A stretch of DNA of 64,000 nt from Candidatus Lloydbacteria bacterium (GTDB lineage Bacteria > Patescibacteriota > Minisyncoccia > Phycocordibacterales > UBA6899): the NCBI GenBank assembly GCA_043719805.1, contig JAYSTI010000015.1, positions 4,881-68,880 on the forward strand, given 5' to 3'. A program made the position numbers and the translations under genes. The notes below the pieces were generated by a model. It made no database searches, was not told where the DNA came from, and saw only the letters and a program-made list of their open reading frames with translations. Below are positions 4,544 through 64,000 of the stretch, piece after piece; position 1 is the stretch's first letter; each line of letters opens with the position of its first letter.

Positions 4544-4552
4544 GCGCGACAG

Positions 4553-39184: not shown

Positions 39185-39192
39185 CAATTACA

Positions 39193-40134
39193 ATGCACGA
39201 ACGAACAAACATTACAGCCACGCCGGTCAGGTTGACCATCCGGAGAGAAGGTCGTGCGCAATACGCACCCCCGCTCCCGCAACCACCACCGAAGAAAAAG
39301 CGCGGAGGAGGTTTTTGGAAAGGGTCGCTCATCGTCATCGGGGCGATACTGCTCACTACGCTTGCGAGTAAGGCGAGCGATTCCCTTAAGATAAGTGACG
39401 CGCTTTTGCTCGCCGGAACAGGGAAATCGACTGAGGTGTTACGTTGCCCAAAGGAGATGGTGTATGTCCCCACATCTCTGGGTGGATTCTGTATTGACCG
39501 TTATGAGGTGACGACGAGTGTGACCTGCCCGCGCACGAGTCCGTCGAGTGAAATGCAGACAAGGGAGAATCTTGCGGTTGCGACCTGTGTCCCCGAGTCG
39601 ACGAAGGGGATGTATCCGTGGGTAAACGCATCATACGCTCAGGCGATGGCGCTCTGTGCGCGAGTGGGGAAAAGGCTACCTTCTCCCGGAGAGTGGTATC
39701 GTGCAGCGCTCGGTACTCCCGATACGATAGGCGACGTGAAGGCTGGGTGTGTCCTTGGTCGCTCTGGTATGAGTCAGGGAGAAAAAGCCGGAGTGCACGA
39801 AGAGTGTGTTTCCTCGTTTGGTTCCTACGATATGGTGGGAAACGTCTGGGAATGGGTAGATGCGGATGTTGTGGACGGGGTCTACGGTGACCGCACGCTT
39901 CCGCCTGAGGGGTACATCACCGAAGCAGATGCGGACGGAGTCCCTTCGCAAACAGCCACGACTTCTTCGCCGGTATTTGGCGAAGACTATTTCTACGCTG
40001 ATTCGACCGGAGTGCGCGGAATGTTTCGCGGAGGGTTTTGGAATTTGACCGACAGGGCGGGAATTTTTACCATCAACGCCACCATCCAGACCTCGTTCGC
40101 CGGCTCTGCCGTCGGGTTTCGTTGTGTAAAATAA
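39193..40134 (+). CDS. Membrane-anchored protein of the formylglycine-generating-enzyme family (FGE-sulfatase / SUMF1-like domain)
   Basis: The motifs FCIDRYEVT, GKRLPSPGEWYRAALG, MVGNVWEWV and FRGGFW are present. There is an N-terminal TM. Confidence 0.65.
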   Translation: MHERTNITATPVRLTIRREGRAQYAPPLPQPPPKKKRGGGFWKGSLIVIGAILLTTLASKASDSLKISDALLLAGTGKSTEVLRCPKEMVYVPTSLGGFCIDRYEVTTSVTCPRTSPSSEMQTRENLAVATCVPESTKGMYPWVNASYAQAMALCARVGKRLPSPGEWYRAALGTPDTIGDVKAGCVLGRSGMSQGEKAGVHEECVSSFGSYDMVGNVWEWVDADVVDGVYGDRTLPPEGYITEADADGVPSQTATTSSPVFGEDYFYADSTGVRGMFRGGFWNLTDRAGIFTINATIQTSFAGSAVGFRCVK

Positions 40135-40171
40135 GCAGCAAATTTGTAGAGCGCGAAAACAGAACATATTC

Positions 40172-43922: not shown

Positions 43923-43933
43923 AGGAGACGACC

Positions 43934-46228: not shown

Positions 46229-46257
46229 GTGCGTTCATGTTTGCGTAACTCATTCTT

Positions 46258-49090: not shown

Positions 49091-52000
49091 ATGCACAATC
49101 AATTTTCATTCATTTTGAGACGCCTGAATATCAGTTTTTCCGTGCGCACGCGCCTCGTTTTTGGGGCACTCGCACTCGTCGTAACGCTGTGGGCATTCAC
49201 ACAATTTGTGCTCGCAGAAAAGGAAGCGAATGTGTATATTTTTCCGAGTGCGATGGGCAGTGACGGCTGGGAGAATGATGAGGCATCACTAATGCAAGAC
49301 CTTTCTCCTGATGCGGAGCTTGTCGATTTTACGCGTGACAATTCTTCGCAGGTATTTTTTGGAAAACCCGTTTCGACTTCTACGGTCGACACGTCCGTCA
49401 TCGAGACGCCTGCTCCTGCGCCGGCAGAGGCCCCCATTGTTGAAGTAACAACAACACCTCAATCCGATGCTCCCGCATCGGTGACTGAAACACTTCCGTC
49501 TTTTCCAAATCCATTTGTTCCGTCGGGAATAAATATTGAGACGCCTGTCGTTGCACCCATGCCTACAGTCGAAGAGACTGCGCCAAGTGGTATTCAGTCA
49601 AAAATTGAACAGACGTTACGAGATTTTTTGACGCGTGTGTGGAGTCCCCACTCAGCAATCGCATTGGAAGTGCCAACGACAACGAGTGAGATAGTGAGTG
49701 ACGCACCGAACCTCTCTCTGGTAACGGACTTATTTATTTCAAGTGGTGTCGGTTCGCTCGAAGTGCCTCCGCTTGTTGAGGGCTCGAGTGCAAGCACCGC
49801 ATCGACATCCACATTCAGCGAAATTATTATCAGTGACATCGTACCTACGGGGGACACTGCGACGACGGCCGACGCTTCTCCTCTGCCAATTTTGCCCAGC
49901 GTTGAAAGTGCAGACCCGTACACCGTTGCACTTTGTACAACGCTCGGAAAAACGTGCCACGTCATGGAGTTCGACGGGTTTGGTCTAGGCGGCGCTCTCG
50001 ACAAAAATCCTCTTCTTGGCGCGACGCTGGAAATTTCGCTTGCGGGGTCCGGCGCATTCACCACCGGCGCATATGACCGCGTTATTGTGCGCGCGTACCA
50101 TGCGGGGCATTGGCAGTTTCTTGGGTCGACGGAGTTGCGTGGAGAAGTGTCAAACGGTAAGCACGGCGGATACCGGAAATACGAACTTCCGGATATCGCA
50201 GAATGGCAAGACCTTTCGGACCTCAAGATTGTCGTCGAGTACGACCGCACGAGTGATGCGGATGCATCTGCATACGTCGACGGCATCTGGATTAATGCGC
50301 GTTACGCGAATGACGCACTTGCCGATGCTTCCGCTGAAGATGTTGCGCTCTCAGGAATGAATATTCGCAGTACGCTTCTGGCAAAGGACGCTGAAGCAAG
50401 AAAAGCACGACGCGACAGATTGATGCTTCCCGAAGGCAAAGAACTCTCCTTCGTCAACAGACAAGATTATGCAGGCGCAACGCTTTCCGTCAAAACCGAT
50501 GATGCGGTCTATCACGCACTTGGGGATGGACGTACGTATTTCAATGTGACGAACGAGAGTGCTGACCCGCAGGTGGTGCGCGTGCAGTTCCACTTTCCCG
50601 TTGAGGGTGCGAACGTGAAGTCGCTTTCTCGGTTTGCGCACAACGTTCCGTACAAAGTGGGGCAATTGAAATACAATGACATCGGATATTTTTGTGATGC
50701 AGGATGGGAGTCGGGAACTTCTCCCTCGACATTTCGTTGTGCGGTAAACGAAGAAGTGCGCTCGTGTGACCGATTGAACGATGACAAAACAAATTGTATT
50801 ACCGTCGGTGCGCGCGTCGGACTTACCGAGGGGACGGAATACCGTGACGGATGGATGGAGGCAGCACTTCGCCCGGGCTCGATTATCGATGATGCGGGAC
50901 TCTTTGCAAAGGCGGTCGATCTCCTGTTGAACCAGCTTCCACCTGACATCATGCCGTCTACCGTTCTTCCTGTCGCACATCTCGGTGACTCCGTGCTCCT
51001 TCAGCCCGGGCAGACGATGTATTTCCGTGCGGACATTACTGTTCCCTTGAACGGTCGTGGAGACTTTTTTGTGGAGGCCGCGGCACAGTCCGGAGCATAC
51101 GGATTGGTCCGTTCTGGTTGGGACGGTTCGTGGAATCATCGTGCGCATATTTCCATCGACAATGAAAACATCACTACAGACGGCACATTTGCAATTCCCA
51201 TCTCACTTGATAATGCACCGTCCGGTTTTTGGGAACACGTTTCGCGGGACGGAAGCGACATTCGATTTGTCGATGAGGCCGCTGCCGCCGAACTCCCATA
51301 CTGGCTTCAAGCTTTTGATACCGAGAAAAAGACTGGGCTAGTTTGGGTTCGTGCGAACGGGAAGGACGGAGGTGCCTCTACGACGATTGCGATGTATTAC
51401 GATTTTGCGACGACCACTTCGCGTTCGGACCCTGCGGCACCATTCCGCACCACAGAACCTGAACCGCGCGGAATAATATTTGGCGGGAGTCAGTCAGACA
51501 TGACACTCCACGTCATTGCACTCGATGACAATGTGCGCGTTCTCGCATCGGACAAACCCGAGGTTGTTTTGAAGAAGGGAGAGAGTGCACTTTTCGACGG
51601 CATGAAACCGGGAAGCGTAATTTCTGCTGACGGTCCTATCGCCGCATCGGTCGAGGCGCCGGGTGCGAATGCAATTTATGTTCCGACGGGATATGCGGGT
51701 GACGAGTTTATTATTCCCGGGATAGGAGGGGAGCGCGAGCTTTCGCTCGGTGTGACCGCACCGAACGTTACACATGCGGGGCTTGGATTCACAAACGGCC
51801 CGGAAATACTCGATCCGGTACGAGGCTCCATCGTTGGGCGCCCAATTGCTCTGGATGAAAGCGTCACACTCACCGGTTCGGGCGACATCATCCCCGTACT
51901 CGGAAGCAACAGCCAATCATTTCCTACGCCGATTTATCCTGCAACTACCGAGGAGCTTTTCGGATTCCAAGTGGGGAGGAGTGTCGTCGGCGTAGCGTGG

Positions 52001-55000
52001 GACGCAACGGCATTTACGGTGGCATGTGGAAATGGTGCACGTCAGGAAGTTGACGGAAGACGAAAGGGGATGACCGTGAAGCTTGATCACTGCGGTGCAG
52101 GCGAGGGACTTCTCTCTGATGCAGTACGTGTTATGGGTGCAAGCAATCCGATAGGCATCGTCGGCGAGGTCAACGAAAATCTCACCGTCGCCGTGCCACG
52201 CAGTGAGTTTGCTTCATCGTATCTTTCACCTTACGATGCGACGGGCGTCTCGATACTTTGTGCCGGAGAAGACGGTGCCATGGATATCGGCGTCTTCGAC
52301 CCTCAGGGCGGGATACTTGCCTCTTCGACTTGCGCAGGTGCGGGCGTGTATCCGGGCAGAACATTCATTGCTCCGGTGAAAGATATTTTTGCGGCAGGGT
52401 TTTCGGTGCGGACGATATCTTCTCTGTCGCCGCAGACATTTCTCGCAGCAATCGTTCCGAGCGTGAAGGCAAGTGTGGACGCCAAGGTGTCACACGCACT
52501 TCTCCCGCTCATTTCGCCTCAGCTTTCTCGCGTATCGGGAGCACGTCATCCCGGGGCGCAGATCGGCGAAGAAGAGTTCGTGGTTCCCGGAGAGCATCGT
52601 CGACTTGATGTTGACGCAGACGGTCGTGATAAAGATCATTTTGGTAGATTGCTTTCAAAGGATCGCGAATTTTCTATTCACCAATTACCTGCGTTCGTTT
52701 TTCAGTACAAGCGTCAGGCAAACGGATTGTTGCAGAGTGTCCGCGACGTGTTCGGGGTGAAGCCGTTCAGCGTTTCTCGCGTCGTGCTGAAGCATGCAAC
52801 CATGGGTGATATCCCCGTCAATTATGACATCAGCTACGGCAACAACAATGAATGGTCAGTTGCGCTGAAAGACATGCATGGTGCGGTGCGTCCGGGAAAA
52901 TATACGCTGTACGTTGAGATCGCGGAGGGCGGTGAGGTGTATGTTGACGAGTACGATTTTTATTGGGGGGTTCTTGCAATCAATTTCAATAAAACTGTTT
53001 TTACGGAGGGTGAGAAGGTTGCAATTTCGGTCGGCGCACTTTCAAACAACGGCAACACTATTTGTGATGCGAATGTGAAATTGTGGATTACGGACACAGT
53101 CGGCGTTGAGGATGAGGTTTTGATGACACCATCCGGACTTTGTAATGGGAACAACGTCGTCGACGTGCCGGATTATTCGGCCATGTACGCACTTCCAAAC
53201 GCGACGGGAACATATAAGGTGAAGCTCGTGCGCTTTGATCAGTACGAAAATGTTGCGAGCCAAGTAAGCGACAGTTTCGAAGTGAGGGAGAGTGTTCCGT
53301 ATTCCGTGGAGCGTGATGGTCCAACGCGCATCTATCCGCTTGCACATTACCCGATGAAGATTCGCATTCATGCAAATGAGGCATTCGAGGGGAATATCGT
53401 GGAGCGCATCCCGGGGGATTTCACTGTTATCGACAGAGGTAATGCAAATTTAGAGTGGGGCGATGCTGAGCATACGTTTATCACTGCGACATGGCCGGTG
53501 AAGCTTTCTGCGGGCGGCTCCATTGACCTGCAATATACATTTGACGCACCGGACCGCTCGCCGTTCCTTTTCTTGCTCGGGCCACTCGAGATGACGAGCA
53601 CGAGCGGTGGGACGAATTTCTCCGAGTTGAGACAGTGGCAGATTGCGTCCGATGCGGCAGGGAAGATGATTTTGTATTGGGATGGAGGCGCAGCTCCCTC
53701 GGGGTGGACCTGTGTTTCATGTTTGGGAAGCGACCCTTTTTCGTTTCGCATTGCCATGGGTTCATCAACATATGGCGGGCAAGGGGGTGCAACAACGACG
53801 ACACATACGGTTTCCGGAACAATAAATACCGCGACATCGACGGCTGTTGCGGAAAGTACCCAGAACAATTTGCTCCTTGCGGATAATTTGCACGGACATT
53901 CGGTCACTCCCAATGTTGTCGCCGCAACAAATACACCGCTTTCCAAGACACTACGCGTCATTCAGTCGACCTCGGCGGGGGAGCCACCATCATTGCCGGT
54001 GGGAGCTATTGCAATGTTTGATATTGCCTCCACCTCACTTCCGTTGACGTGGTATCGCTATGCTCCGATGGATGGGTATTACGCAATGGCTTCGACATCG
54101 GTCGGCTCGACCACTGGTGCCAATACTCATGCACATACGGTGACCGGTTCAACGTCCCCCGCAACCGGCAATGGATATCGTTCGCGTACTCCGACTATCT
54201 CCCCTCAGCCCGCACTACTCAGCCACGTCCACCGGTTTTCAACCTCAACAAACCCCACGGTAAACAATGAGCCGCCATACGTTGAGGTGCTTTATGCTCG
54301 ACTCACTGTGGCAACGACAACCTTACAGAATTTCAATGGCATGATAACGATGTGGGACAATACACCACCTGCAGGGTGGACAAATCAGTCAGACGCGGGG
54401 CAAGTCTTTGATGGAAAGTTTTTGAAGGCATCGACAACATATAGCGGCACGGGGGGTGGTACGACGCACACGCACATCGATATGAGTGGAGGAGCTGTCC
54501 AGTCGCCTGATGCGCAGGCAAATGGACGCACGCCGACTTCCCCCGTTGTTGTACAATCAGCACCGGGAGACCATTCACACGCTTTCAATCTCAGCGGCTA
54601 TTCGACTGATACGAGTTTGCCTAATTACATCGAAGTAATTTTTGCAAAGCGCTTCAGCGGAATTACTGTTTACGCACAAGACAATCATCTTTGGTATGAC
54701 AACGTAAATGCTAATACCCCGACAGACATCTGGCCTCCGGGAGGATCAACCCTTGGCGAGGGGGACGCTATTACTGTTTCAACGCAGCCGCCAATTCCGG
54801 GAAATGTGCTTCGATTGCGCATGACGTTCAACGTTACGAATGCGACAGCAACAGCATTGTCGCAGGCGTTCAAGCTGCAGTATGTTGCAGCGGACAGCGG
54901 TACCTGCGCATCGGCACTCATGTGGACCGACGTCGGGGCTATCGGCGCAGGTGGGGCACTTTGGCGGGGATACAACAATGCGGGAGTTACTGACGGAGCA

Positions 55001-58000
55001 AACCTCTCGTCATTGTTGTTGACGAATTCAAATGTCGGGGAAAGTTATACGGAGCAAAATAATTCTTCTTCAACCCCGACAGAAATTCCGCTTCTCCAAA
55101 CTGGAGAGTGGGATTGGGTAATACAGGACAATCTTGCGACAGAGGGAACAAATTATTGTTTCCGCATGGTGAAGTCGGACGGTACTCCCCTGGACACGTA
55201 TACTGACTATCCCGAGGCAATCACAAATAGTGCTCCCGACCTGCCGGTGCAAACTATTCCATTTGATAATCAAAAAGTAAGTAGCGTGACCCCCGACTTT
55301 CGATTCGTCGGCGTTGACCCTGAATTGAACGACCTCGACTACGAGATACAGATCGACACTACCGCGACGTTTACTGCGCCGTTCATCGACAAGGAGTCAA
55401 CAGCAAACCCTGAATTGTTTGACAACATCAATACTCCTGCAAATAAGGCGCCATTCTATTCCGGAGATACAATCCACTTTGCTCCAACTACCGCCCTCAC
55501 GAATGGTGTCACCTACTGGTGGCGCGTGCGCGCAAAAGATACCAATGCATCCAATACATATGGTGCGTGGTCGGCGATACAAAGTTTCACTATTGATACG
55601 AGCGTTGTTCGCACGACGTGGTTCCAGACACGACAGATACAATTTTTGAATGATACTTTTGATGGTGCGACTACGACTGGTGCGAATGATGTGCAACTTG
55701 TTGTGGGTTCATCGACGGGTTACATTTATTCACAGCCGATATACTTTAGCGTGCGCGGAGCGGAAACTGTGTGGGCGACTACCTCATGGAGTAGAGACGA
55801 AACGAACGGCACAGTACGATTGCAAGTTGAATATTATACGTCGACCAGTTCATGGGCGCTTATCCCTGATGCGGATTTGTCCGGGAATGCCGCGACTTTT
55901 GGAGGTGGGTCGAAGTCGCTACTCACACTTGATCCGAATACGTATTCAATAATTCGTCTCAAGGCTACATTGATCAACATCAGTGGTTCGCCGATACTGC
56001 AAGATTGGACCGTTTCATGGGGGTATAAGGTGGTGACTCCGACACAATATCTTCCCTTTGATAATGCGAAAGTAGGCACGACGACGCCGTCATTCGAGTT
56101 CCGCTCGTCCGACCCTCTTGGGGGAGACCTCTACTATGAAATTCAGTGGTCGACAACCTCTGCATTCACCTCTTCCACAACGCGAAATTCGCAGGCAAGC
56201 ACCACGGCATTTATAAATATTCAGAATGCCACGGACACCCAACCGTTCAATTCCGGTGACCGTATTCGCTTTACGCCATACGGGGGCGACACACTTTCTG
56301 CAACAACAACCTATTATTGGCGTGTGCGCGCGAAGGACGTCAATGGTACGAACGTCTTTTCTTTCTGGTCTTCAATCTGGAGTATCACGACCGATTCTGC
56401 GCTGACATATACGACGTGGTTTCAAACTCATGACGGGCAATTCTCGACTGACGCCCTCACGAGCATGGAGACGTTTGCATCAAATACATTGCGAGTCGCG
56501 ACGACGACCGGGGATGCGATGTTTGCGTATGCTTCAGGGGTAAATCAGGCGCCGAAGTATCGTCTCTGGGACGGTGCTTCGTGGGGTTCTTCTGCGGCAT
56601 CACTCAGCGCATCTTCCACCATCCAATGGGTAGTACTTAAGGCATCGACACTTTATGGCGAGTATCTTATGGGGACGATTGGAGCCAATAAGCATGCGAT
56701 TTTTCAGGTTTACAAAAACGGCGCTTGGGGAAATTCCTTGAGTCTTACGACGACCGTGGCGAATGTTTCGCGACGTGGAATTGCAATTGCGTATCAGACG
56801 TTATCCGGTAATGCGGTTGTCGCCGCATGTGACGGTGATGCGGACCCGAGATATGCGATATGGAACAGCACGTCATCCTCCTGGTCGGCAACGGGGACTA
56901 TCAACGTGGCAAGTGTGAACAACTGCGAGTGGCTTCGACTTGTTTCAAGTCCTATTTCAAATGAAGTCATTGTCATGGAGCGCGATACGGGTGCCGCGTA
57001 CGAGGCACAAGTGTTGAATGGGACTACGTCGACGTGGGGGAACGCAACGACGTTTGGTGGAATGACCGAAACGGGTCATGAGGGAATGGCTTTGGAATAT
57101 GAGCGAAGTGGATATCAGGCGATTGCGTTATCTTCGAGATTGAACACGGCAAATTTTGGTTGGCGTTCATGGGATGGTTCGATTTGGTCTGCCGCACTCA
57201 CGAATCAGTCAATAACCGACGACTTCGAATGGGGGAATCTTAAGGTGCCGGGTTACGCGACGGACACATTAGCACTGTGTTATGAAAATCAAGTTGACGA
57301 CCATTACGTCATTCGCTGGAATGGAGCTGCGTGGGTGGGCAATACCGTCATGACGGCAACGGGTAATACAAAAAACGACAACCGTTCGATTGACTGTGAT
57401 TATGATGCCGCAACGTCGACCGATAAGTCGAACGTTGTTGTTGCATATAGTGACACGACCAATGCGCGCTATAAGGTGTTTCAGTCGACAACAACCCCGT
57501 GGTCGTGGTGGAGCCAAGGAACTATTTCCACCATTCCTGCTTCTGCGGCGGTACAAACAGCGCGTACGCTTGGAGGAAAGATACTTGCGGTGTTTCTCAA
57601 TAAGACCGCGAAGAGTTATGACTTTTCTGCATGGAATGGTTCGACGTGGTCGACTACGCAAACACTAGAGACAACATCGTCGGTGTCCGCATCTCCATAC
57701 GCCGAGCCTTTTATGCTTGCCGCGAAAAATCCCGCAACGCAAGGCTCCGTTGTTTCTACGCAGATTAATTTTGCAGACGGACTTTCTCCTGCATGGAGGC
57801 AAGTGTTATGGAGCGCGCAAAAACCTACGGGAACCACGTTCGTTGTCCAAGTTCAATATTTGGATTCAGGAACGGGGGCGTGGACACTCATTCCCAATGC
57901 CCAGATTCCTGGAAATGACGTCGGAACAACGACCTCGCCAATCTCAATCTTAAATTTAAACACCACGACTTATGGCACGATACGACTTGTCGGTAGCGCT

Positions 58001-61000
58001 ACATGTTATTTTGGGACATGCCCGTTCCTCAATGATTGGTCTGTCGAATGGGCGCTGGGAATTCAAATTTCCGGAATAGCCCGCGCGCACGACCTCACCA
58101 CAAATGTGACATCAGGAACAGTCGCCGTTGCGGTCAACGGAGCGATTCAGACGGGTAGAACAGGAACGATAGCCGCGAACGGAAGTTGGTATATCGATAA
58201 TGTGAATGCGTTCGCGGGCAACGTAGTTACGGTGTTCATTTCGGGAGCAAATGACTTCAACGAAGCGGTTGCTGTGGCAAAATATACCGGACCCGGAGAC
58301 ATGGGCGGTATGAAGTTGAGCGAGCGGTGGCTCACGCTGGGGTCCGCATCAACTACGGGGCAGACGCTCACACTTACCGACATTGGTCGATATGATAATT
58401 CCATTTCAGCCAATGAAGATATTTTCTACGATGTCGGAGTCGGTGGAGATTATACTAATTGCGCGACAGGAGTGTGCCTCGATTCAAGTATCGATGTGTA
58501 CTCCAACACCTTCCGTCCGTCGACTTCCACGCCGCAGACAGTGAATACGTGGGACATGCGCAACGTCGCATATTTCTACGCAGATGCAAACACGGTGAAG
58601 GTGAGTGGTTCCTGGATAAACGTCGGCGGATTTACATCAAATGCTTCAACGATTATCTTCAATGCAACAAGCTCGACGCGCACCATTGATTCGACGGGTG
58701 CAGCGACCTCAACGTTCTTTAATGTGACATTCGGCGAGAGTGGAAACGTCGCAACGTGGGGATTGTCCAGTGCGTTCACTGCAACGGGAACAGTCTCTAT
58801 GAATTTTGGTACGACTTCACCGGGGACCTCCGCGATGACGCTTCAGGGTGACCTCTCAATCGGGGCGTCCGGGACATTCTTGAAGGGGACCGCGACGACG
58901 ACCTTTTCCGGAGCATTGTCAAAAACGTGGACAGACAGCACGGCATCGAAGCAGGACCTCGGAAATATTTTAATCGATGGAACAGCAAAGACATTAACAC
59001 TGGGTTCGTCTGTGAGGGCAAGTGCAGTGAAGATCGGCGCCGACGACATACTCAACGCCGGAGGAGCAAATACGATGACTGTTTTGGGCTTCTGGGAGAA
59101 TCTCGGAACATTCACTGCGCAGACGGGGACCGTGACATTCGCCACGACGACGGCAAGTCTTTCAATTAACCAAGGTATTTCAGATTTTTACAATCTTACA
59201 TTTAATGGCTCCGGCGGGTCATGGCGGTGGTTGAACACCAATGCAACCGCAACTGCTAATGTGACAATTACCGTCGGCACCGTCACCCTCCCCGGGGGAA
59301 CTCTTGCAGTCGGTAGCTCGTTTGATAACTCCGGCGGTACATTCGTGAATAGCAGTGGTGCAATCAAGTTTACTTCGACAGCGACGGGGAGAAATGTTCG
59401 ATTCAACGGCTCCAATGCTTCCACGCTTTTGTTTTCGGGTACTGGCGGTGGATGGACATTCCTTGATGCAAATGCGACTGCAACACAGGACGTCTTTATT
59501 ACTGCAGGTACGCCAACATTCCCAAGTGGTACGCTTGAAGTAGGTCGCGATTTCTTGAATCAAAGCGGAGCATTCACGGCCAACGGAGGCACACTCAAGA
59601 TGACGTCGACCTTGTCGGGTCGGTCCATCACCTTGTTTGGTTCTTCGCTCGCGTCGCTGCTTATTGCTGCCGCCGGCACCTTTACCATCACCGACACCAA
59701 CGCAACTGCAACCGCAGATGTCATGTTCGCCGCCGGAACGACGGTGTTCCCATCCGGAACGTTTGCCATCGGTGGGTCATTCACAAATAGCGCGGTGTTT
59801 ACGGCAGGAAGTCAGGTTGCATTTAATGCTTCATCGGGAACGAAGCTCGTCAATCCCGGTAGTTCATCGTTTGTGAACGTAAGTGTCAGGCCTTCAACCG
59901 GCGCGACCACAACTATCACAGCGAATGCGACCACGACGGGCACATTCACACTCGTCTCCGGCAATTTCTCGCAGACGACGGGAACCGCACTTGCCGTAGG
60001 CGGCGCCTTCACCAATCAGACGGGAGGTGCTGCGACGACGTGGACCGGCTCCACGCTTTCGCTCAATTCTGGTACGTCATTCACATTGAATACGAAGACG
60101 TTGGGTGGTGATGCATATGCAACAATGCGGCTCGTGGCAGGCACGAACATTCGCATGTGGGGCTCTTCCGTCAGCACCTACCAGCTCGCCAGTTTCTCCT
60201 CGATGTATTCCCAGAATAACGTGGGGATAAGCGGGGCGCTTCTCATTGCAGGGGACTACGCGCGTACGAGTGGAACGGATTATTGGGATTACGCAACCGA
60301 TTTTGACGGGACAGCATTAGGAGGAAGTTCGCGACAGGTAAATGTGCGCTTTACGCCGAATGCGACGACAACCTTTACCACTGGCGCCATCCTCAGCATT
60401 GTCGGCACTTCGACTGCAACGACAACCATAGACCGACAGACGACCGGCAGTTTCGCGATCTCGCTTGCGAGTACGACACTGAATGCCTCGTACTATCAAT
60501 TCCGAAACATGAATTCTTCCGGACTGAGTCTTTCCGGCTCCACGACCATCACATCGCTTTCTTACGGTGATTTTGAGGTCGCAACCGCGGGGGGTAGTGC
60601 GCTTACCATTGCGTCGACGACAGTGACGCATAACTCCGGATTACAAATATTCAACGTGCGTTTTGCGACAACGACCGCCATCTCCGCATTCAATGTGACC
60701 GAAGTGGGTACGCCGACTTCAGTGTCGTCATACATCCGCTTCAAACAACACTACGGAAATCTTGCCGGTGAAGGATTTGACGTCGATCCGGGAGGGAATC
60801 CGGGATACATCCGGTGGGATGATAGTTTGTTCGTCATTTCCATTTCGGGAACGGTTTATACTACTGCGCTTACGCCAATGGGTGCACCAACGTGTAACGA
60901 TGTAACGCCGAATGTGCGCGTGAAGGTTGACGGCTTGGGGAATTTTACTGCGGTATGTAGTTCTGTAGACGGCACATTTACTGTTCCGGGCGTTACCTTT

Positions 61001-64000
61001 ACCGGCGATACGGTCATGACGGTGTATCTTGATACAGGAGGAGCAGCTAAGGCCGTTTGGGTGACGAGGTCAGCCGCCGCCAGTCTTTCGGGCGTTAAGC
61101 TGTATCAGAATCGCGTCATTGTCAGTCATGAGGACGTCACTCCGCTCACGATCGCGAACATGAACGCCTACGATGGAGGGGACGATGCGGACATTCCGTT
61201 TGTGGCGACGCTCGGATCTCCAAATACGCTTACGGTAAATCCGGAGATGGAGTTTTGGGTATGGACCGGGAAGACGTTCATTCCCGGAGGAAATATCACA
61301 CTCAATTCGGGGGGCTCCGGAAATAATTGGGATGGTGCATTCCACATCGATAACAGCTCGACTTTCACCGCGCAGGGGACGGAGTCACATTCGGTCGGGG
61401 GCAAATGGACCGCAGATGCCGGTGCGACATTCACTGCTGCTTCGTCGACATTCATCTTTACTGCAACCACATCGGGAAAGGCAATCACCGCAATCGTACC
61501 AATCACATTCTGGAATACAACGTTCAACGGCACGGGGGGAAATTGGTCAGTGAACCAGACCGTGAACGTCGGAAACAATTTCGTTGTTACGGCAGGAACA
61601 GTTTCGGGTGCAAGTTCTATTAACGTAACCGGAACGAGTGCAAGCGGGAACGGAGTTGTTGCGATGACGGGTGGGACGTTCTCCCTGTTCTACGGCGGAA
61701 CATTTGGAGGAACGTCAGACTGGAGTTTCAATAATCTTACCTTCGGTACCGGCACGGTGGCGACAACAACAAAGACTGCTTCTTCGACGGTGACGGTGTC
61801 GAGTGTATTGACCGTTGCAAGTGCCCATGTATTTCTTGCGGGTAGTCCGTCGACGTGGAATTTGACCGGCGGCGGGACTCCGTTCGTTCAAAGTGGTACG
61901 TTCGACGCACAGACGAGCATCTTCAGATATAGCAGTAATGCGGCGACGAACATCACGCCCGCAACGTATCATCGCCTCTATCTTGCACCGAGCGCGTCGG
62001 GTGGTCCGACGTATACATTTTCGAGCGGTACGTTCACCGTGAACAATAATTTGAGTATTGGTGACGGAGTAAACACCGCGACGGTGACGGCGACGACCAA
62101 TGACCCGATTCTCAATGTGCTTGGGGATATGTTCATTCGCGCGACTACGACATTTATCGCGTCAGATAGTGCGGCTCTAAACGCGTCGCGTGACTTTGTA
62201 AACGCAGGGCTCTTCACGAGCTCAGGTGGGACCGTCAACTTTATTGCAACAACAACCGGACGCTTTGTTACGACTGCGTCTTCGTCGTTTGCCAACGTGA
62301 ATTTCAACGGCGCGGCGGGAGGATGGACGATAACGGGGAATGCAACGTCGACAAGTAATTTCTCTCTCACTGCTTCGTCACAATTTACGATGGCGTCGGG
62401 TACAACACTTGAGGTGAAGGGGGTATTTACCAATGCCGTGGGTGGCACTGCAACGACGTGGACAGGCACAACGCTCTACATGAACTCCGGCGCCACATCC
62501 GCACTCAACGCGAAGTCTGTGTTGGGGGATCAGTATGAGACGCTGAACGTCGCCGCAAGTACTGCAATTAGTATGTGGAACTCAGCTGCAACCTCGACGA
62601 GCATCAACGCGAGTGGAAGTTTGTATTCACAAAACCACGCGTCGACGACCGGCTTACTGTACATATTCGGAGCATACGCACGCTCATCCGGAACGGACTA
62701 TTGGAGTTACGCAAATAATTTCGATGGAACCGCGCTTGGGGTAGCGAGTCGTCGCGTTGATGTGCGTTTTGCCTCTGCGACAACGATGACGGTATCGGGT
62801 ACCGGAGGACTTGAGGTGATTGGTATTTCAACTGCATCGACGACGCTCGATGTGCAGTCTTTGGGTACGTACGCCATGAGTTTTTCAGGTGGCTCGTCGA
62901 CGATGCGGTATTTGAATGTTCGTGGAGTCAATGGCAACGGTTTTAATTACTCCGGCACAACACTGGCGAATGATCTCTCGGATGCCGATTTTCTTCTGCA
63001 GGTGGACGGGGGAAGTATGATTACCGTCGCAGGAGGGACGATCGACGTGAACCCGCTCAAGATCTTTTCACGAAACTATTTCAGCACCACGACGGGTATT
63101 GTCTCTGGGTATAACGTGAAGGCGACCGGTGTTTCCGGATCAATCTGGCGTTTCTCCGGAACTCCCGCCTTGTACGGAAATTATTCCGGAGAGGCCCGTG
63201 ATTCCGACCCAGGAGGCGACCCGGGGTACATTGTGTGGGATGACTCTGCGAACAACGTTACAATTTCAGGAAATGTGTACGGCGACGAAGGGGTTACTCC
63301 TATCGGTGGACCGACATGTAACGGTGTTACGCAAAACGTACGACTCAAGGTGCAAGGGGCAGGTACCTATACCTCGGCTTGTAATGCGGTATCGGGAGCA
63401 TTTTCAATCTCATCTGTCGTGTTTAATCCCGGAGACACACTCACGCTCTATCTCGACACTAATAGCACTACGTCTGCGGCGAATATTTCCGTTGATCCGA
63501 CAACGAACATCAGCAACATGCATCTGTATCGCGATCGCGTCATTCTCCGTCACGAACAGGGAAGTCCGATGACTATCGCTGCAATCGATTTGTACGACGG
63601 CAATCAGGACACCGATATCGCAGTCCAGGCATCGCTCGGCGCTCCAAATATTCTCATTGTTCGCGCAGGCACAAAAATTATCGTCTGGACCGCGAAAACA
63701 TTTACGCCGGGAGGAAACGTAACGATACACGGAAATGCCGCAAGTGGCATTGACGGCACGGTCGAGCTTCAGGCGACGTCGACGTGGGCATCAACGGGCT
63801 CGGAAACGCACACATTGGCAGGGCAGTTCCTTGCGCAGTCCGCCGCTACTGTTGTTCCCGCAAGTTCCACGTTCATATTCTATGCAACGACGACGGGAAA
63901 GTACATTGCGGCATCGTCATCGCTTACGTTCTATAATCTCACCTTCAGTGGCGCTTCCGGAGGTTGGGATATCGGCGGCGTTGGTACTTCGTCCAACGAT
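49091..64000 (+). CDS. Giant surface protein of at least 4,970 aa, 3'-truncated at the window end. It was missed by the ORF track because it has no in-window stop. Its modules are: a signal anchor; a Pro/Ala-rich linker; tail-collar-like HxH modules; a WRGY domain; FN3-like domains; long parallel beta-helix repeat tracts; and a tandem super-repeat of about 2.4 kb.
   Basis: I translated this frame codon by codon from the ATG at 49091 to 64000, which is 14,910 nt or exactly 4,970 codons. I met no stop. The protein is coherent throughout, with repeated motifs such as TYYWRVRAKD and FxNLTFxGxGGxW. It shares a domain with the ORF at 17521..22842. The N-terminus is MHNQFSFILRRLNISFSVRTRLVFGALALVVTLWAF. 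Confidence 0.75.
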   Translation, partial: MHNQFSFILRRLNISFSVRTRLVFGALALVVTLWAFTQFVLAEKEANVYIFPSAMGSDGWENDEASLMQDLSPDAELVDFTRDNSSQVFFGKPVSTSTVDTSVIETPAPAPAEAPIVEVTTTPQSDAPASVTETLPSFPNPFVPSGINIETPVVAPMPTVEETAPSGIQSKIEQTLRDFLTRVWSPHSAIALEVPTTTSEIVSDAPNLSLVTDLFISSGVGSLEVPPLVEGSSASTASTSTFSEIIISDIVPTGDTATTADASPLPILPSVESADPYTVALCTTLGKTCHVMEFDGFGLGGALDKNPLLGATLEISLAGSGAFTTGAYDRVIVRAYHAGHWQFLGSTELRGEVSNGKHGGYRKYELPDIAEWQDLSDLKIVVEYDRTSDADASAYVDGIWINARYANDALADASAEDVALSGMNIRSTLLAKDAEARKARRDRLMLPEGKELSFVNRQDYAGATLSVKTDDAVYHALGDGRTYFNVTNESADPQVVRVQFHFPVEGANVKSLSRFAHNVPYKVGQLKYNDIGYFCDAGWESGTSPSTFRCAVNEEVRSCDRLNDDKTNCITVGARVGLTEGTEYRDGWMEAALRPGSIIDDAGLFAKAVDLLLNQLPPDIMPSTVLPVAHLGDSVLLQPGQTMYFRADITVPLNGRGDFFVEAAAQSGAYGLVRSGWDGSWNHRAHISIDNENITTDGTFAIPISLDNAPSGFWEHVSRDGSDIRFVDEAAAAELPYWLQAFDTEKKTGLVWVRANGKDGGASTTIAMYYDFATTTSRSDPAAPFRTTEPEPRGIIFGGSQSDMTLHVIALDDNVRVLASDKPEVVLKKGESALFDGMKPGSVISADGPIAASVEAPGANAIYVPTGYAGDEFIIPGIGGERELSLGVTAPNVTHAGLGFTNGPEILDPVRGSIVGRPIALDESVTLTGSGDIIPVLGSNSQSFPTPIYPATTEELFGFQVGRSVVGVAWDATAFTVACGNGARQEVDGRRKGMTVKLDHCGAGEGLLSDAVRVMGASNPIGIVGEVNENLTVAVPRSEFASSYLSPYDATGVSILCAGEDGAMDIGVFDPQGGILASSTCAGAGVYPGRTFIAPVKDIFAAGFSVRTISSLSPQTFLAAIVPSVKASVDAKVSHALLPLISPQLSRVSGARHPGAQIGEEEFVVPGEHRRLDVDADGRDKDHFGRLLSKDREFSIHQLPAFVFQYKRQANGLLQSVRDVFGVKPFSVSRVVLKHATMGDIPVNYDISYGNNNEWSVALKDMHGAVRPGKYTLYVEIAEGGEVYVDEYDFYWGVLAINFNKTVFTEGEKVAISVGALSNNGNTICDANVKLWITDTVGVEDEVLMTPSGLCNGNNVVDVPDYSAMYALPNATGTYKVKLVRFDQYENVASQVSDSFEVRESVPYSVERDGPTRIYPLAHYPMKIRIHANEAFEGNIVERIPGDFTVIDRGNANLEWGDAEHTFITATWPVKLSAGGSIDLQYTFDAPDRSPFLFLLGPLEMTSTSGGTNFSELRQWQIASDAAGKMILYWDGGAAPSGWTCVSCLGSDPFSFRIAMGSSTYGGQGGATTTTHTVSGTINTATSTAVAESTQNNLLLADNLHGHSVTPNVVAATNTPLSKTLRVIQSTSAGEPPSLPVGAIAMFDIASTSLPLTWYRYAPMDGYYAMASTSVGSTTGANTHAHTVTGSTSPATGNGYRSRTPTISPQPALLSHVHRFSTSTNPTVNNEPPYVEVLYARLTVATTTLQNFNGMITMWDNTPPAGWTNQSDAGQVFDGKFLKASTTYSGTGGGTTHTHIDMSGGAVQSPDAQANGRTPTSPVVVQSAPGDHSHAFNLSGYSTDTSLPNYIEVIFAKRFSGITVYAQDNHLWYDNVNANTPTDIWPPGGSTLGEGDAITVSTQPPIPGNVLRLRMTFNVTNATATALSQAFKLQYVAADSGTCASALMWTDVGAIGAGGALWRGYNNAGVTDGANLSSLLLTNSNVGESYTEQNNSSSTPTEIPLLQTGEWDWVIQDNLATEGTNYCFRMVKSDGTPLDTYTDYPEAITNSAPDLPVQTIPFDNQKVSSVTPDFRFVGVDPELNDLDYEIQIDTTATFTAPFIDKESTANPELFDNINTPANKAPFYSGDTIHFAPTTALTNGVTYWWRVRAKDTNASNTYGAWSAIQSFTIDTSVVRTTWFQTRQIQFLNDTFDGATTTGANDVQLVVGSSTGYIYSQPIYFSVRGAETVWATTSWSRDETNGTVRLQVEYYTSTSSWALIPDADLSGNAATFGGGSKSLLTLDPNTYSIIRLKATLINISGSPILQDWTVSWGYKVVTPTQYLPFDNAKVGTTTPSFEFRSSDPLGGDLYYEIQWSTTSAFTSSTTRNSQASTTAFINIQNATDTQPFNSGDRIRFTPYGGDTLSATTTYYWRVRAKDVNGTNVFSFWSSIWSITTDSALTYTTWFQTHDGQFSTDALTSMETFASNTLRVATTTGDAMFAYASGVNQAPKYRLWDGASWGSSAASLSASSTIQWVVLKASTLYGEYLMGTIGANKHAIFQVYKNGAWGNSLSLTTTVANVSRRGIAIAYQTLSGNAVVAACDGDADPRYAIWNSTSSSWSATGTINVASVNNCEWLRLVSSPISNEVIVMERDTGAAYEAQVLNGTTSTWGNATTFGGMTETGHEGMALEYERSGYQAIALSSRLNTANFGWRSWDGSIWSAALTNQSITDDFEWGNLKVPGYATDTLALCYENQVDDHYVIRWNGAAWVGNTVMTATGNTKNDNRSIDCDYDAATSTDKSNVVVAYSDTTNARYKVFQSTTTPWSWWSQGTISTIPASAAVQTARTLGGKILAVFLNKTAKSYDFSAWNGSTWSTTQTLETTSSVSASPYAEPFMLAAKNPATQGSVVSTQINFADGLSPAWRQVLWSAQKPTGTTFVVQVQYLDSGTGAWTLIPNAQIPGNDVGTTTSPISILNLNTTTYGTIRLVGSATCYFGTCPFLNDWSVEWALGIQISGIARAHDLTTNVTSGTVAVAVNGAIQTGRTGTIAANGSWYIDNVNAFAGNVVTVFISGANDFNEAVAVAKYTGPGDMGGMKLSERWLTLGSASTTGQTLTLTDIGRYDNSISANEDIFYDVGVGGDYTNCATGVCLDSSIDVYSNTFRPSTSTPQTVNTWDMRNVAYFYADANTVKVSGSWINVGGFTSNASTIIFNATSSTRTIDSTGAATSTFFNVTFGESGNVATWGLSSAFTATGTVSMNFGTTSPGTSAMTLQGDLSIGASGTFLKGTATTTFSGALSKTWTDSTASKQDLGNILIDGTAKTLTLGSSVRASAVKIGADDILNAGGANTMTVLGFWENLGTFTAQTGTVTFATTTASLSINQGISDFYNLTFNGSGGSWRWLNTNATATANVTITVGTVTLPGGTLAVGSSFDNSGGTFVNSSGAIKFTSTATGRNVRFNGSNASTLLFSGTGGGWTFLDANATATQDVFITAGTPTFPSGTLEVGRDFLNQSGAFTANGGTLKMTSTLSGRSITLFGSSLASLLIAAAGTFTITDTNATATADVMFAAGTTVFPSGTFAIGGSFTNSAVFTAGSQVAFNASSGTKLVNPGSSSFVNVSVRPSTGATTTITANATTTGTFTLVSGNFSQTTGTALAVGGAFTNQTGGAATTWTGSTLSLNSGTSFTLNTKTLGGDAYATMRLVAGTNIRMWGSSVSTYQLASFSSMYSQNNVGISGALLIAGDYARTSGTDYWDYATDFDGTALGGSSRQVNVRFTPNATTTFTTGAILSIVGTSTATTTIDRQTTGSFAISLASTTLNASYYQFRNMNSSGLSLSGSTTITSLSYGDFEVATAGGSALTIASTTVTHNSGLQIFNVRFATTTAISAFNVTEVGTPTSVSSYIRFKQHYGNLAGEGFDVDPGGNPGYIRWDDSLFVISISGTVYTTALTPMGAPTCNDVTPNVRVKVDGLGNFTAVCSSVDGTFTVPGVTFTGDTVMTVYLDTGGAAKAVWVTRSAAASLSGVKLYQNRVIVSHEDVTPLTIANMNAYDGGDDADIPFVATLGSPNTLTVNPEMEFWVWTGKTFIPGGNITLNSGGSGNNWDGAFHIDNSSTFTAQGTESHSVGGKWTADAGATFTAASSTFIFTATTSGKAITAIVPITFWNTTFNGTGGNWSVNQTVNVGNNFVVTAGTVSGASSINVTGTSASGNGVVAMTGGTFSLFYGGTFGGTSDWSFNNLTFGTGTVATTTKTASSTVTVSSVLTVASAHVFLAGSPSTWNLTGGGTPFVQSGTFDAQTSIFRYSSNAATNITPATYHRLYLAPSASGGPTYTFSSGTFTVNNNLSIGDGVNTATVTATTNDPILNVLGDMFIRATTTFIASDSAALNASRDFVNAGLFTSSGGTVNFIATTTGRFVTTASSSFANVNFNGAAGGWTITGNATSTSNFSLTASSQFTMASGTTLEVKGVFTNAVGGTATTWTGTTLYMNSGATSALNAKSVLGDQYETLNVAASTAISMWNSAATSTSINASGSLYSQNHASTTGLLYIFGAYARSSGTDYWSYANNFDGTALGVASRRVDVRFASATTMTVSGTGGLEVIGISTASTTLDVQSLGTYAMSFSGGSSTMRYLNVRGVNGNGFNYSGTTLANDLSDADFLLQVDGGSMITVAGGTIDVNPLKIFSRNYFSTTTGIVSGYNVKATGVSGSIWRFSGTPALYGNYSGEARDSDPGGDPGYIVWDDSANNVTISGNVYGDEGVTPIGGPTCNGVTQNVRLKVQGAGTYTSACNAVSGAFSISSVVFNPGDTLTLYLDTNSTTSAANISVDPTTNISNMHLYRDRVILRHEQGSPMTIAAIDLYDGNQDTDIAVQASLGAPNILIVRAGTKIIVWTAKTFTPGGNVTIHGNAASGIDGTVELQATSTWASTGSETHTLAGQFLAQSAATVVPASSTFIFYATTTGKYIAASSSLTFYNLTFSGASGGWDIGGVGTSSND
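60240..64000 (+). repeat. Diverged tandem super-repeat of about 2.4 kb per copy within the giant ORF. Copy 2 continues beyond the window.
   Basis: Copy 1 (about 60240..62640) and copy 2 (62640 onwards) are collinear segments: YAR(T/S)SGTDYW.YA..FDGTALG...R.V.VRF...PGG(N/D)PGYI.WDDS...ISG.VY...TP.GGPTCN.VT.NVR.KV.G...LYLDT. Confidence 0.65.

What the first reader, a model, noticed from the sequence alone, without database searches (positions are those of the whole stretch)
53660..54610. Phage tail-collar-like (MdpB / T4 gp36-type) HxH modules embedded in the giant surface protein
Within the giant ORF, at least two segments follow the tail-collar domain logic (P.GW..C.G......Y..LF..IG..YGG.G...F.LPDLRGR...G.G......GG.E.HTLT...MP.H.H). 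The first is WDGGAAPSGWTCVSCLGSDPFSFRIAMGSSTYGGQGGATTTTHTVSGT. The second is WDNTPPAGWTNQSDAGQVFDGKFLKASTTYSGTGGGTTHTHIDMSGG. Additional isolated HxH motifs are ANTHAHTVTG and GDHSHAFNLSGY. HxH repeats in phage fibres coordinate metal ions in trimeric beta-structures. Their presence in a cellular giant adhesin suggests a fibre-like receptor-binding tip, or a module acquired from a phage.
Basis: partly seen in the sequence, partly recalled or inferred. Interest (0 to 1): 0.55.

Follow-up and report, generated by a model that had tools for sequence, protein, structure and literature searches.

The report
Single-chain phage-fibre-tip domain in giant adhesin
A giant surface protein of an ultra-small (CPR-type) bacterium carries a conserved, uncatalogued 335-residue domain made of three tandem copies of a histidine-rich module that viruses use once at the tip of their tail fibres, so it probably rebuilds a trimeric viral receptor-binding tip within one protein chain.

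Summary
Residues 1558-1892 of the giant ORF (window 53654-54658) are three homologous ~108-aa modules, not two. Each has two HxH layers: five intact motifs plus one degenerate TxH, and these are the only HxH motifs in 5006 aa.

This triple unit is a large uncatalogued family. It has 2170 representatives and no Pfam, NCBIfam or PHROG model. [quoted passage not shown]

The phage link holds:
- A high-confidence AlphaFold model (pLDDT 87) matches the tail proteins Pas28 and Pas29 of Actinoplanes phage phiAsp2, which also carry three tandem HxH modules.
- The same module occurs once at the extreme C-terminus of viral tail-fibre proteins.

Pfam Collar does not hit, and T4 gp36 has no Collar domain. 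However, profile-profile comparison with gp37-type Collar+HxH fibre tips gives 84-89% probability, against 1.6% or less for controls.

Best reading: a single-chain pseudo-trimer of a phage fibre tip, with two His6-type metal sites and three hypervariable tip loops, acting as a binding knob. The geometry, metal binding and ligand are inferred, not shown. I rate it a new variant of a known kind.

The parts
49091..64000 (+). Giant ORF, more than 4970 aa, running off the window end. The first ATG is at 49091 and the frame is open from 48983.
   Evidence: The N-terminal hydrophobic anchor and DUF2341 are listed as separate parts.
49154..49216 (+). N-terminal hydrophobic segment LVFGALALVVTLWAFTQFVLA, a likely signal anchor, so the rest of the protein is probably extracellular.
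   Evidence: Read from the translation. No topology predictor was run, so this is inference.
51248..51445 (+). DUF2341 domain (aa 756-821 of the frame).
   Evidence: Pfam PF10102, E 2.2e-13.
53654..54658 (+). Triple-module HxH domain (aa 1558-1892), the unit this report describes.
   Evidence: Three module-HMM hits, none elsewhere in the window. The unit is conserved in 2170 representatives. AlphaFold model has pLDDT 87.4 and pTM 0.83.
53654..53986 (+). Module 1 (aa 1558-1668).
   Evidence: hmmsearch i-E 1.6e-30. M1 vs M2 and M1 vs M3 profile hhalign gives 99.7% and 99.9%.
53993..54313 (+). Module 2 (aa 1671-1777).
   Evidence: hmmsearch i-E 9.7e-27. Alignment.
54335..54658 (+). Module 3 (aa 1785-1892).
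   Evidence: hmmsearch i-E 2.2e-31.
53798..53806 (+). Layer A, module 1: T-T-H. The first His is replaced by Thr, so the motif is degenerate.
   Evidence: Alignment. The same one-His-short pattern occurs in 47 of 202 units.
54128..54136 (+). Layer A, module 2: HAH.
   Evidence: His occupancy is 94-96% in the family.
54467..54475 (+). Layer A, module 3: HTH.
53891..53899 (+). Layer B, module 1: HGH.
   Evidence: His occupancy is 96-98%.
54224..54232 (+). Layer B, module 2: HVH.
54572..54580 (+). Layer B, module 3: HSH.
53810..53890 (+). Hypervariable tip loop of module 1, between His layers A and B.
   Evidence: Low pLDDT. Column entropy is 3.3 bits against 2.25 bits in the core. Identity to the closest homologues is 18-23% against 46-56% in the core.
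54137..54223 (+). Hypervariable tip loop of module 2.
54476..54571 (+). Hypervariable tip loop of module 3.

Best explanation
Residues 1558-1892 of the giant, N-terminally anchored surface protein form one autonomous domain built from three diverged tandem copies of a ~108-residue module. That module is homologous to the C-terminal tip module of viral tail fibres.

In a virus the module occurs once per chain, and the fibre is presumed to be a homotrimer. Here the three 'subunits' are fused into one polypeptide, which I propose folds around a pseudo-threefold axis.

In the proposed model, each module contributes three things:
- A collar-like base, made of the N-terminal strand G.I..W/F, the P.GW turn, F.RG, and the C-terminal strand (L)P.Y..V..AK.
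- An ascending strand carrying GG..(T)HTH (layer A) and a descending strand carrying HxH (layer B).
- A loop of about 27 hypervariable residues between the two layers.

The His side chains of each layer would point to the axis and form two stacked octahedral metal sites (Fe2+ or Zn2+), as in T4 gp37, R-pyocin fibres and gp12. In this protein layer B has six His, and layer A has five His plus one Thr. The three variable loops would form the distal ligand-binding face.

Both chain termini would lie at the base, so the domain could sit as a side knob inside a monomeric giant protein. It most likely mediates recognition of, or adhesion to, a surface ligand on another cell.

Shown here: the three homologous modules, His conservation, the fixed copy number, homology to phage tail proteins and to single-module viral fibre ends, and a confident compact monomer model. 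Inferred: the pseudo-threefold geometry, metal binding, and the binding function and ligand.
For: Module structure:
- There are three modules and no others in the window.
- The module profiles are mutually homologous (hhalign 99.7-99.9%, E 1e-26 to 1e-32).
- The positions carry position-specific consensus features, so the triplication is old.
- Of 182 family proteins, 150 have exactly 3 modules and 26 exactly 6. None has 4 or 7. The few others are truncated or weak.

Histidine layers:
- His occupancy over 202 units is 83-96% in layer A and 96-99% in layer B.
- 178 of 202 units have all six His in layer B.

Structure prediction:
- The AlphaFold2 monomer model from 41 sequences has pLDDT 87.4 and pTM 0.83.
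- It shows the same six-strand pattern three times. The HxH strands are confident and only the inter-layer loops are of low confidence.

Phage relatives:
- Foldseek against BFVD hits phiAsp2 Pas29 (E 7.7e-15, TMq 0.54) and Pas28 (E 1e-12).
- Both lie directly after the long tail protein gene. Pas29 is annotated 'possible receptor recognizing protein'.
- Both contain three tandem modules with four HxH each, and both match the module HMM.
- A viral contig (IMG/VR) encodes a 485-aa protein with tail-spike and tail-fibre PHROG hits over aa 57-338. It ends in exactly one module.
- Seventeen small proteins of 105-192 aa end in one module. Two are encoded next to a tail-fibre-like gene.
- One relative, P0071, fuses the triple unit to a baseplate-protein domain (phrog_1160, E 8.8e-17).

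Distant relatives:
- The module profile hits the Pa223 tail fibre 9NXK at E 0.025 and the JUB59 receptor-binding protein 6OV6 at E 2.4. Both alignments cover both ends of the module.
- Both proteins have gp37-like tips (10.1101/2025.06.11.659172; PMC9509320).
- hhalign against a gp37-type Collar+HxH tip profile gives 84-89%, with P between 2e-6 and 7e-6. Controls give 1.6% or less.

Other support:
- HxH layers on the axis of trimeric fibres bind Fe or Zn through six His (PMC6116203).
- The tip loops are hypervariable but length-constrained, with an interquartile range of 26-29 aa.
- Among genomes, the family is found mainly in CPR bacteria and DPANN archaea.
Against: - Coordinates could not be inspected, so neither the pseudo-threefold packing nor the His geometry was measured.
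- Foldseek against the PDB found nothing significant, including the gp37 tip 2XGF and gp12. This is expected for one chain compared with single chains of intertwined trimers, but it is still a negative result.
- Pfam Collar and Phage_fiber are not hit at useful E-values.
- hhalign of the module profile against the single gp37 sequence gives only 2%.
- The 84-89% result rests on an ad hoc nine-sequence profile.
- The copy-number count comes from proteins retrieved with a triple-unit profile, so it is biased against single-module or odd-number architectures.
- Layer A of this protein has only five His.
- The His co-loss test did not discriminate between shared and independent sites.
- The roles of Pas28 and Pas29 are annotation only.
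- No ligand is known.
Confidence: 0.6

Rival explanations
1. Beads on a trimeric string. The giant protein itself forms a homotrimer, and each of the three modules pairs with the same module of the two other chains. This would give three consecutive trimeric collar/HxH knobs, as in a true phage fibre, rather than one pseudo-trimer.
For: All solved HxH fibre proteins are homotrimers (PMC6116203; the 9NXK and 6OV6 hits). The single-module viral relatives are presumably trimeric. Tandem knob domains occur in R-pyocin fibres (PMC6116203).
Against: - Copy number is fixed at 3 or 6, with position-specific divergence of M1, M2 and M3. That is unexpected for independent beads.
- The AlphaFold monomer model is compact and confident (pTM 0.83) without partner chains.
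- Standalone 325-356-aa proteins consist of exactly one triple unit.
- The flanking domains of the giant protein (DUF2341, Ig-like) are not fibre-like trimerisation domains.
Confidence: 0.15
2. A rigid, metal-stapled structural spacer. The pseudo-trimer exists but serves only to stiffen or stabilise the giant protein, not to bind a ligand.
For: Buried metal sites in fibres are thought to serve folding and stiffness (PMC6116203). The loop length between the layers is tightly constrained.
Against: The loops between the layers are the most variable part of the domain: 18-23% against 46-56% identity, and entropy 3.3 against 2.25 bits. This is the pattern of receptor-binding tips. The viral relatives place the module at the distal C-terminal end of fibres.
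Confidence: 0.15
3. The HxH pairs form catalytic or metal-sequestering sites, making the domain an enzyme or metal store unrelated to fibres.
For: HxH motifs occur in many metalloenzymes (general knowledge). There are weak YmaF hits (E 0.03-0.05).
Against: No enzyme family is hit in Pfam, NCBIfam or the PDB. The homologues found are phage tail proteins. No conserved acidic or nucleophile residues accompany the His.
Confidence: 0.05
4. Compositional coincidence in a Thr/Gly-rich protein, which is the refutation case the first reader proposed.
For: The protein is 12.5% Thr and 10% Gly. Pfam Collar gives no hit.
Against: - 5 HxH are observed against 0.65 expected.
- The family has 2170 homologues with conserved His.
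- Reversed and shuffled profile controls give 1.6% or less, against 84-89%.
- There are significant structural hits to phage tail proteins.
Confidence: 0.01

Closest known systems
Actinoplanes phage phiAsp2 Pas28 and Pas29 (tail proteins encoded after the long tail protein gene; Pas29 annotated 'possible receptor recognizing protein; contains HXHY motifs')
   Same: Both have three tandem homologous modules in one chain, with the G.I..W / P.GW start, GG..HxH and a C-terminal PP(Y/F)..V strand. Foldseek gives E 7.7e-15 and 1e-12 with TMq 0.54. The module HMM matches. tblastn gives E 8e-4.
   Different: The phage modules carry four HxH motifs each (three at 7-residue spacing plus one) rather than two, so they have a longer 'needle'. 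They do not map one-to-one onto M1, M2 and M3. They sit in virion tail proteins rather than a cellular giant protein. Neither has been characterised experimentally.
Single-module viral fibre ends (IMG/VR contig L062, 485-aa tail-fibre protein; small proteins P0183-P0199)
   Same: They carry the same module at 38-50% identity, including CPSGWTR, FLRG, YGGTGGS.THTH, HxH and LPPYIDVVF. They score 50-107 bits against the M1, M2 and M3 HMMs.
   Different: There is one module per chain, always at the extreme C-terminus, presumably assembling as a homotrimer. The context is viral or tail-fibre genes.
T4 gp37 long-tail-fibre tip (PDB 2XGF): Collar domain PF07484 plus an HxH iron-binding needle. Related tips occur in Pa223 gp60 (9NXK), JUB59 RBP (6OV6) and SU10 short fibre.
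   Same: The order of elements is the same: N-terminal strand, P.G(W) turn, (D.)RG.F.RG, ascending HxH, distal variable part, descending HxH, then a final strand that returns to the base at the chain end. hhalign gives 84-89%. There are weak HMM hits to 9NXK and 6OV6. In these fibres HxH binds Fe through six His on the threefold axis (PMC6116203, PMC9509320).
   Different: - Those are homotrimers of one module; here there is one chain with three modules.
- About 22 residues of the Collar (Q.F...YP.L...YP..iPD) are absent.
- There is no LPDLRGR motif.
- There are two His layers instead of seven in gp37.
- Pfam Collar is not hit, and Foldseek against the PDB is not significant.
MdpB-like 'phage tail collar domain' proteins of bacteria
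   Same: They share the general motif logic P.GW ... YGG ... GG...H.L/H.T ...
   Different: This was not tested directly, because no MdpB sequence was at hand. Their defining Pfam model, Collar, does not match this region.

Membership tests
Pfam PF07484 Phage Tail Collar domain | hmmscan hit at or above the gathering score (24 bits) | tested here: not met
   There is no hit at E<=1 for the 400-aa region. There is no hit at E<=10 for 21 individual modules or for 18 viral single modules. The positive control works: T4 gp37 residues 816-863 hit at 7e-11.
Pfam PF07484 Phage Tail Collar domain | Conserved 'F.LPDLRGR' segment and the preceding 'Y..LF..IG..YGG' helix | tested here: not met
   The sequence shows only 'F.RG' (for example FRIAMG and KFLKAS). 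The hhalign alignment places a gap of about 22 residues opposite this segment.
gp37-type Collar+HxH fibre tip (superfamily level) | Profile-profile similarity to an alignment of gp37-type tips | tested here: inconclusive
   hhalign gives probability 84-89% and P between 2e-6 and 7e-6, against 1.6% or less for reversed or column-shuffled controls. Against the single gp37 sequence it gives only 2%. The tip profile is ad hoc, built from 9 sequences.
gp37-type Collar+HxH fibre tip (superfamily level) | Structural match to solved tips (2XGF, gp12, 6OV6) | tested here: not met
   Foldseek against the PDB gives no match with E<=0.001. The test is weak for a fused chain compared with single chains of intertwined trimers.
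HxH metal-binding fibre proteins | Conserved HxH motifs | tested here: met
   There are five HxH plus one TxH. His occupancy in the family is 83-99%.
HxH metal-binding fibre proteins | Six His from three symmetry-related strands coordinating one Fe or Zn on the axis | not testable with these tools
This is inferred from 3 x 2 His per layer.
HxH metal-binding fibre proteins | Homotrimeric assembly | not testable with these tools
   The architecture of three modules in one chain suggests that a pseudo-trimer replaces the homotrimer.
Pfam PF03903 Phage_T4_gp36 | hmmscan hit | tested here: not met
   There is no hit. T4 gp36 itself matches only PF03903 and has no Collar or HxH domain.
Triple HxH-module family (uncatalogued; CPR/DPANN surface proteins and phiAsp2 Pas28/29) | Three consecutive homologous modules, each with GG..HxH and a second HxH, ending in P(P)Y..V | tested here: met
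   Shown. The family profile retrieves 2170 representatives. The window region is 47-48% identical to Parcubacteria and Lloydbacteria proteins.
MdpB (microcystin-dependent protein) family | Sequence similarity to MdpB | not tested
Only its Pfam domain (Collar) was tested, with a negative result.

The most novel reading that the evidence does not exclude
The triple HxH unit is a host-recognition determinant of episymbiotic CPR bacteria and DPANN archaea. It would be a viral receptor-binding fibre tip converted by triplication into a single-chain pseudo-trimer, so that it can be displayed on monomeric giant adhesins. Its three hypervariable loops would set which host cell the episymbiont attaches to, and it would have been exchanged between viruses and cells across both prokaryotic domains.
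Probability: 0.3. Interest if true: 0.8.

Novelty: new variant of a known kind. Interest (0 to 1): 0.62.

Why it matters
**Host recognition by episymbionts.** How ultra-small episymbionts (CPR/Patescibacteria and DPANN) recognise and hold on to their hosts is largely unknown, and their giant surface proteins are mostly unannotated. This work defines a large, conserved domain family with no entry in Pfam, NCBIfam or PHROGs. It ties that family to viral receptor-binding fibre tips and gives concrete boundaries, candidate metal ligands and candidate binding loops. Homologues occur in Saccharibacteria, a group for which cocultures exist, so the idea can be tested.

**Phage structural biology and protein engineering.** A natural single-chain version of an intertwined, metal-stapled trimeric fibre tip would be a useful scaffold. 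It would have three independently variable loops on one chain and would need no trimerisation chaperone.

**Domain evolution.** It would also show how a homotrimer can become a pseudo-symmetric monomer. Triple jelly-roll capsid proteins are a comparable case (general knowledge).

Tried and rejected
- **Pfam, NCBIfam and PHROG scans.** The region, the individual modules, the viral single modules and Pas28/29 give no model for the module. Only weak YmaF and Phage_fiber hits appear.
- **phmmer against PDB sequences.** This gave only a chance antibody hit.
- **Foldseek against the PDB.** Neither the shallow model (pLDDT 67) nor the good model gave anything significant.
- **hhalign of the module profile against the single T4 gp37 tip sequence.** Probability was 2%. 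An ad hoc profile of nine gp37-type tips was needed to see the relation.
- **The search for related loci with broad alignments.** These failed because no stretch was conserved enough. The alignment of the window's closest relatives found no IMG/VR relatives. The alignment of the standalone triple-unit proteins found the viral single-module fibre.
- **His co-loss test.** Checking whether the three modules lose their His pairs together, to separate a shared site from independent sites, gave results close to independence and is uninformative.
- **Mapping phiAsp2 modules onto M1, M2 and M3.** There is no one-to-one pattern, so whether the phage and cellular triplications share one origin is unresolved.
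- **Literature searches.** Searches on HxH, pseudo-trimer, tail collar and CPR terms found no description of this domain in the held library.
- **Diversity-generating retroelement.** None was seen. No reverse transcriptase was found among the window ORFs scanned.
Full report
**1. What is there**

The + strand frame beginning at 48983 is open to the end of the window (5006 codons). The first ATG is at 49091 and is followed by a hydrophobic anchor. A DUF2341 domain lies at aa 756-821, and Ig-like domains lie further on.

The protein contains only five HxH motifs, all within aa 1637-1866. Shuffling predicts 0.65, and 5 of 5000 shuffles reach five.

Aligning the segment to itself and to homologues shows three tandem modules, not two. 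They span aa 1558-1668, 1671-1777 and 1785-1892 (window 53654-54658). Each module has this plan:
- G.I..(W/F)D, then P.GW, then F.RG, then YG.TGG..(T)HTH, which is layer A.
- About 27 variable residues.
- HxH, which is layer B.
- (L)P.Y..V..(A)K.

**2. It is a conserved unit, not a compositional accident**

A word-indexed search found six homologues with the same three-module layout. They include a Parcubacteria protein (47% identity) and two roughly 355-aa proteins that consist of the unit alone.

A profile search of 1.84 billion representatives found 2170 proteins at E<=1e-3 and 462 at E<=1e-30. Among the best 150, the median length is 1340 aa and 28 exceed 3000 aa.

Module counts across the 182 family proteins at hand:

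| Modules per protein | Proteins |
|---|---|
| 3 | 150 |
| 6 | 26 |
| 4 or 7 | 0 |
| Other (truncated or marginal) | 6 |

This count is biased, because the proteins were retrieved with a triple-unit profile.

The three positions have their own consensus features, and their profiles are mutually homologous at 99.7-99.9%. So the triplication is old and fixed.

His occupancy over 202 units is 83-96% in layer A and 96-99% in layer B. All six layer-B His are present in 178 of 202 units.

The loops between the layers are the most variable part. Their entropy is 3.3 bits against 2.25 bits in the core, and their identity to the closest homologues is 18-23% against 46-56%. Their length is nevertheless tightly constrained, with an interquartile range of 26-29 residues.

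No Pfam, NCBIfam or PHROG model covers the module.

**3. Who has it**

In one-genome-per-species GTDB contigs, 56 loci were confirmed.
- Nearly all are Patescibacteria (CPR): Lloydbacteria (the best match, at 48%), Paceibacterota, Saccharibacteria and Kaiserbacteria.
- Several are DPANN archaea: Woesearchaeota, Nanoarchaeia and unclassified archaea.
- A few come from other phyla.

The window is therefore most likely from a Parcubacteria-type CPR bacterium. This is an inference from the best hits.

**4. The phage connection**

*(a) Structure.* With seven sequences the AlphaFold model was poor (pLDDT 67). With 41 sequences it reached pLDDT 87.4 and pTM 0.83. It shows the same six-strand pattern three times, with confident HxH strands and low confidence only in the inter-layer loops.

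Foldseek against the PDB gave nothing significant. Against BFVD it gave Pas29 (E 7.7e-15, TMq 0.54) and Pas28 (E 1e-12) of Actinoplanes phage phiAsp2.

These two genes follow the long tail protein gene. Pas29 is annotated as a possible receptor-recognising protein with HXHY motifs. Both proteins contain three tandem modules with four HxH each. They match the module HMM, whereas T4 gp34, gp36 and gp37 do not.

*(b) Single-module viral forms.* An IMG/VR contig encodes a 485-aa protein that hits tail-spike and tail-fibre PHROGs over residues 57-338. Its last roughly 110 residues are exactly one module, ending ...SHLPPYIDVVFCKKD*.

Searching with that module found 17 small proteins (105-192 aa) that all end in one module. 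On two contigs, two such genes lie side by side, close to a gene with tail-fibre PHROG hits (3e-16) and downstream of a giant gene.

These single modules score 50-107 bits against the M1, M2 and M3 HMMs.

*(c) Fusion to a baseplate domain.* One relative, P0071, fuses the triple unit to a baseplate-protein domain.

*(d) Distant relatives.* The module profile weakly hits the tail fibre of Pseudomonas phage Pa223 (9NXK, E 0.025) and the receptor-binding protein of phage JUB59 (6OV6, E 2.4). Both alignments cover the N-terminal P.GW part and the C-terminal HxH...PP(Y/F) part. Both proteins are described as having T4 gp37-like tips, with HxH iron sites in JUB59 (10.1101/2025.06.11.659172; PMC9509320).

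**5. Is it a 'tail collar' domain?**

The same model finds T4 gp37 residues 816-863. T4 gp36 has no Collar domain, so 'gp36-type' is wrong.

I built a profile from T4 gp37 and eight divergent phage fibre tips found by tblastn and compared it with the module profiles.
- hhalign gives 84-89% probability, with P between 2e-6 and 7e-6.
- Reversed or column-shuffled controls give 1.6% or less.

The alignment is sensible:
- P.G.I..W....P.GW pairs with P.GA...WPS.T.P.G.
- A roughly 22-residue stretch of the Collar (Q.F...YP.L...YP..iPD) is missing from the module.
- RG.FiRG pairs with (g)kF.RG.
- The first HxH motifs pair.
- In global mode, the terminal LPPYIDVVF.K pairs with E.RP.NIA.NYIIK.

I read the module as a diverged, shortened relative of the Collar+HxH tip. 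It is not a member of the Pfam family as defined.

**6. How it probably works**

In solved fibres (T4 gp37, R-pyocin fibres, P2/phi92 spikes, gp12), each chain of a homotrimer gives one HxH per layer. The six His coordinate Fe or Zn on the threefold axis (PMC6116203).

Four observations bear on this domain:
- The module occurs once at the C-terminal end of viral fibres.
- It occurs exactly three times (or six) in cellular proteins.
- The three copies are position-specifically diverged.
- The monomer is predicted as one compact, confident domain.

The simplest explanation is a single-chain pseudo-trimer with a collar-like base, two stacked His layers and three hypervariable loops forming the distal face. 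In this protein, layer A has five His plus one Thr and layer B has six His.

Both termini lie at the base. This would let the domain be inserted as a knob in a monomeric giant surface protein. The location at a viral fibre tip, the loop hypervariability and the restriction to episymbiotic lineages all point to ligand or cell recognition.

I could not inspect coordinates. The geometry and metal binding are therefore inferred, and no ligand is known.

**7. Rivals**

- A homotrimeric giant protein with three consecutive trimeric knobs is possible. The fixed copy number, the standalone triple-unit proteins and the confident monomer model disfavour it.
- A purely structural, metal-stapled spacer remains possible. 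The loop variability argues against it.
- An enzymatic role has no support.
- Compositional coincidence is excluded.

**8. Novelty**

HxH fibre tips and Collar domains are known. [quoted passage not shown]

Four literature searches in the held library found no description of it. That library is incomplete, so prior description elsewhere cannot be excluded. I rate it a new variant of a known kind.

Noticed in passing
window 40130-41917 (+) and 46249-47754 (+): One ORF has a dockerin type I hit (E 1.2e-5) with bacterial Ig domains, and a nearby ORF has a cohesin hit (E 2.9e-5). This is a possible cohesin-dockerin surface assembly pair upstream of the giant gene.
   Followed up: no
window 42480-43919 and 43907-45274 (+): An adjacent, overlapping TldD/PmbA-type metallopeptidase pair (E 1e-65 and 4e-52) lies just upstream of the surface-protein genes.
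   Followed up: no
window 39139-40131 (+): A protein with an FGE-sulfatase / C-type-lectin-like domain (E 1.9e-13). From my own knowledge, this fold is often the variable protein of diversity-generating retroelements in CPR. No reverse transcriptase was seen among the ORFs scanned.
   Followed up: partly
window about 59800-61300 and about 62200-63700 (aa about 3600-4100 and about 4400-4900 of the giant ORF): There is a large internal duplication in the C-terminal part of the giant protein. Examples are DYWDYATDFDGTALGGSSRQVNVRF against DYWSYANNFDGTALGVASRRVDVRF, and DPGGNPGYIRWDDS against DPGGDPGYIVWDDS. These are long Thr/Ser/Gly-rich beta-helix-like repeats with no Pfam hit.
   Followed up: no
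window about 55230-55600 and about 56010-56400 (aa about 2085-2205 and about 2345-2470): Two copies of a module PFDN.KV....P.F.F...DP...DL.YEIQ...T..F......WWRVRAKD lie within the giant protein. They are hit by Ig_Rha78A_N (E 3.4e-8).
   Followed up: no
window 54660-55230 (aa about 1893-2080), and the same position in P0001, P0004, P0088, P0107 and P0116: A conserved domain (..Q..FR(F/W)Y.D......LRLR......A....FKLQY...C....W.DV) directly follows the triple unit in many homologues. It has no family assignment and may work together with the unit.
   Followed up: no
L063 10001-10869 and L064 9456-10324: Two adjacent single-module genes (178 aa and 107 aa) lie downstream of a gene of more than 2200-2900 aa and of a tail-fibre-like gene, with no Pfam annotation on any neighbour. 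This may be the tail module of an unknown virus.
   Followed up: partly
P0190 and P0191 (189 aa): These single-module proteins have an N-terminal hydrophobic leader (…ALTFGILVVCFAVAFYVVAWQEP…), so cellular or secreted single-module forms may exist besides the fibre ends.
   Followed up: no
P0071 (653 aa), P0003 and P0005 (L001, L002): P0071 is a triple unit with no signal peptide, starting MANLHLF(W/F)DG and fused to a baseplate-protein domain. P0003 and P0005 are standalone triple units sitting among short same-strand genes. These look like viral versions of the triple form.
   Followed up: partly
window 17488-22839 (+): A second very large ORF (1784 aa) has no Pfam hit at all.
   Followed up: no
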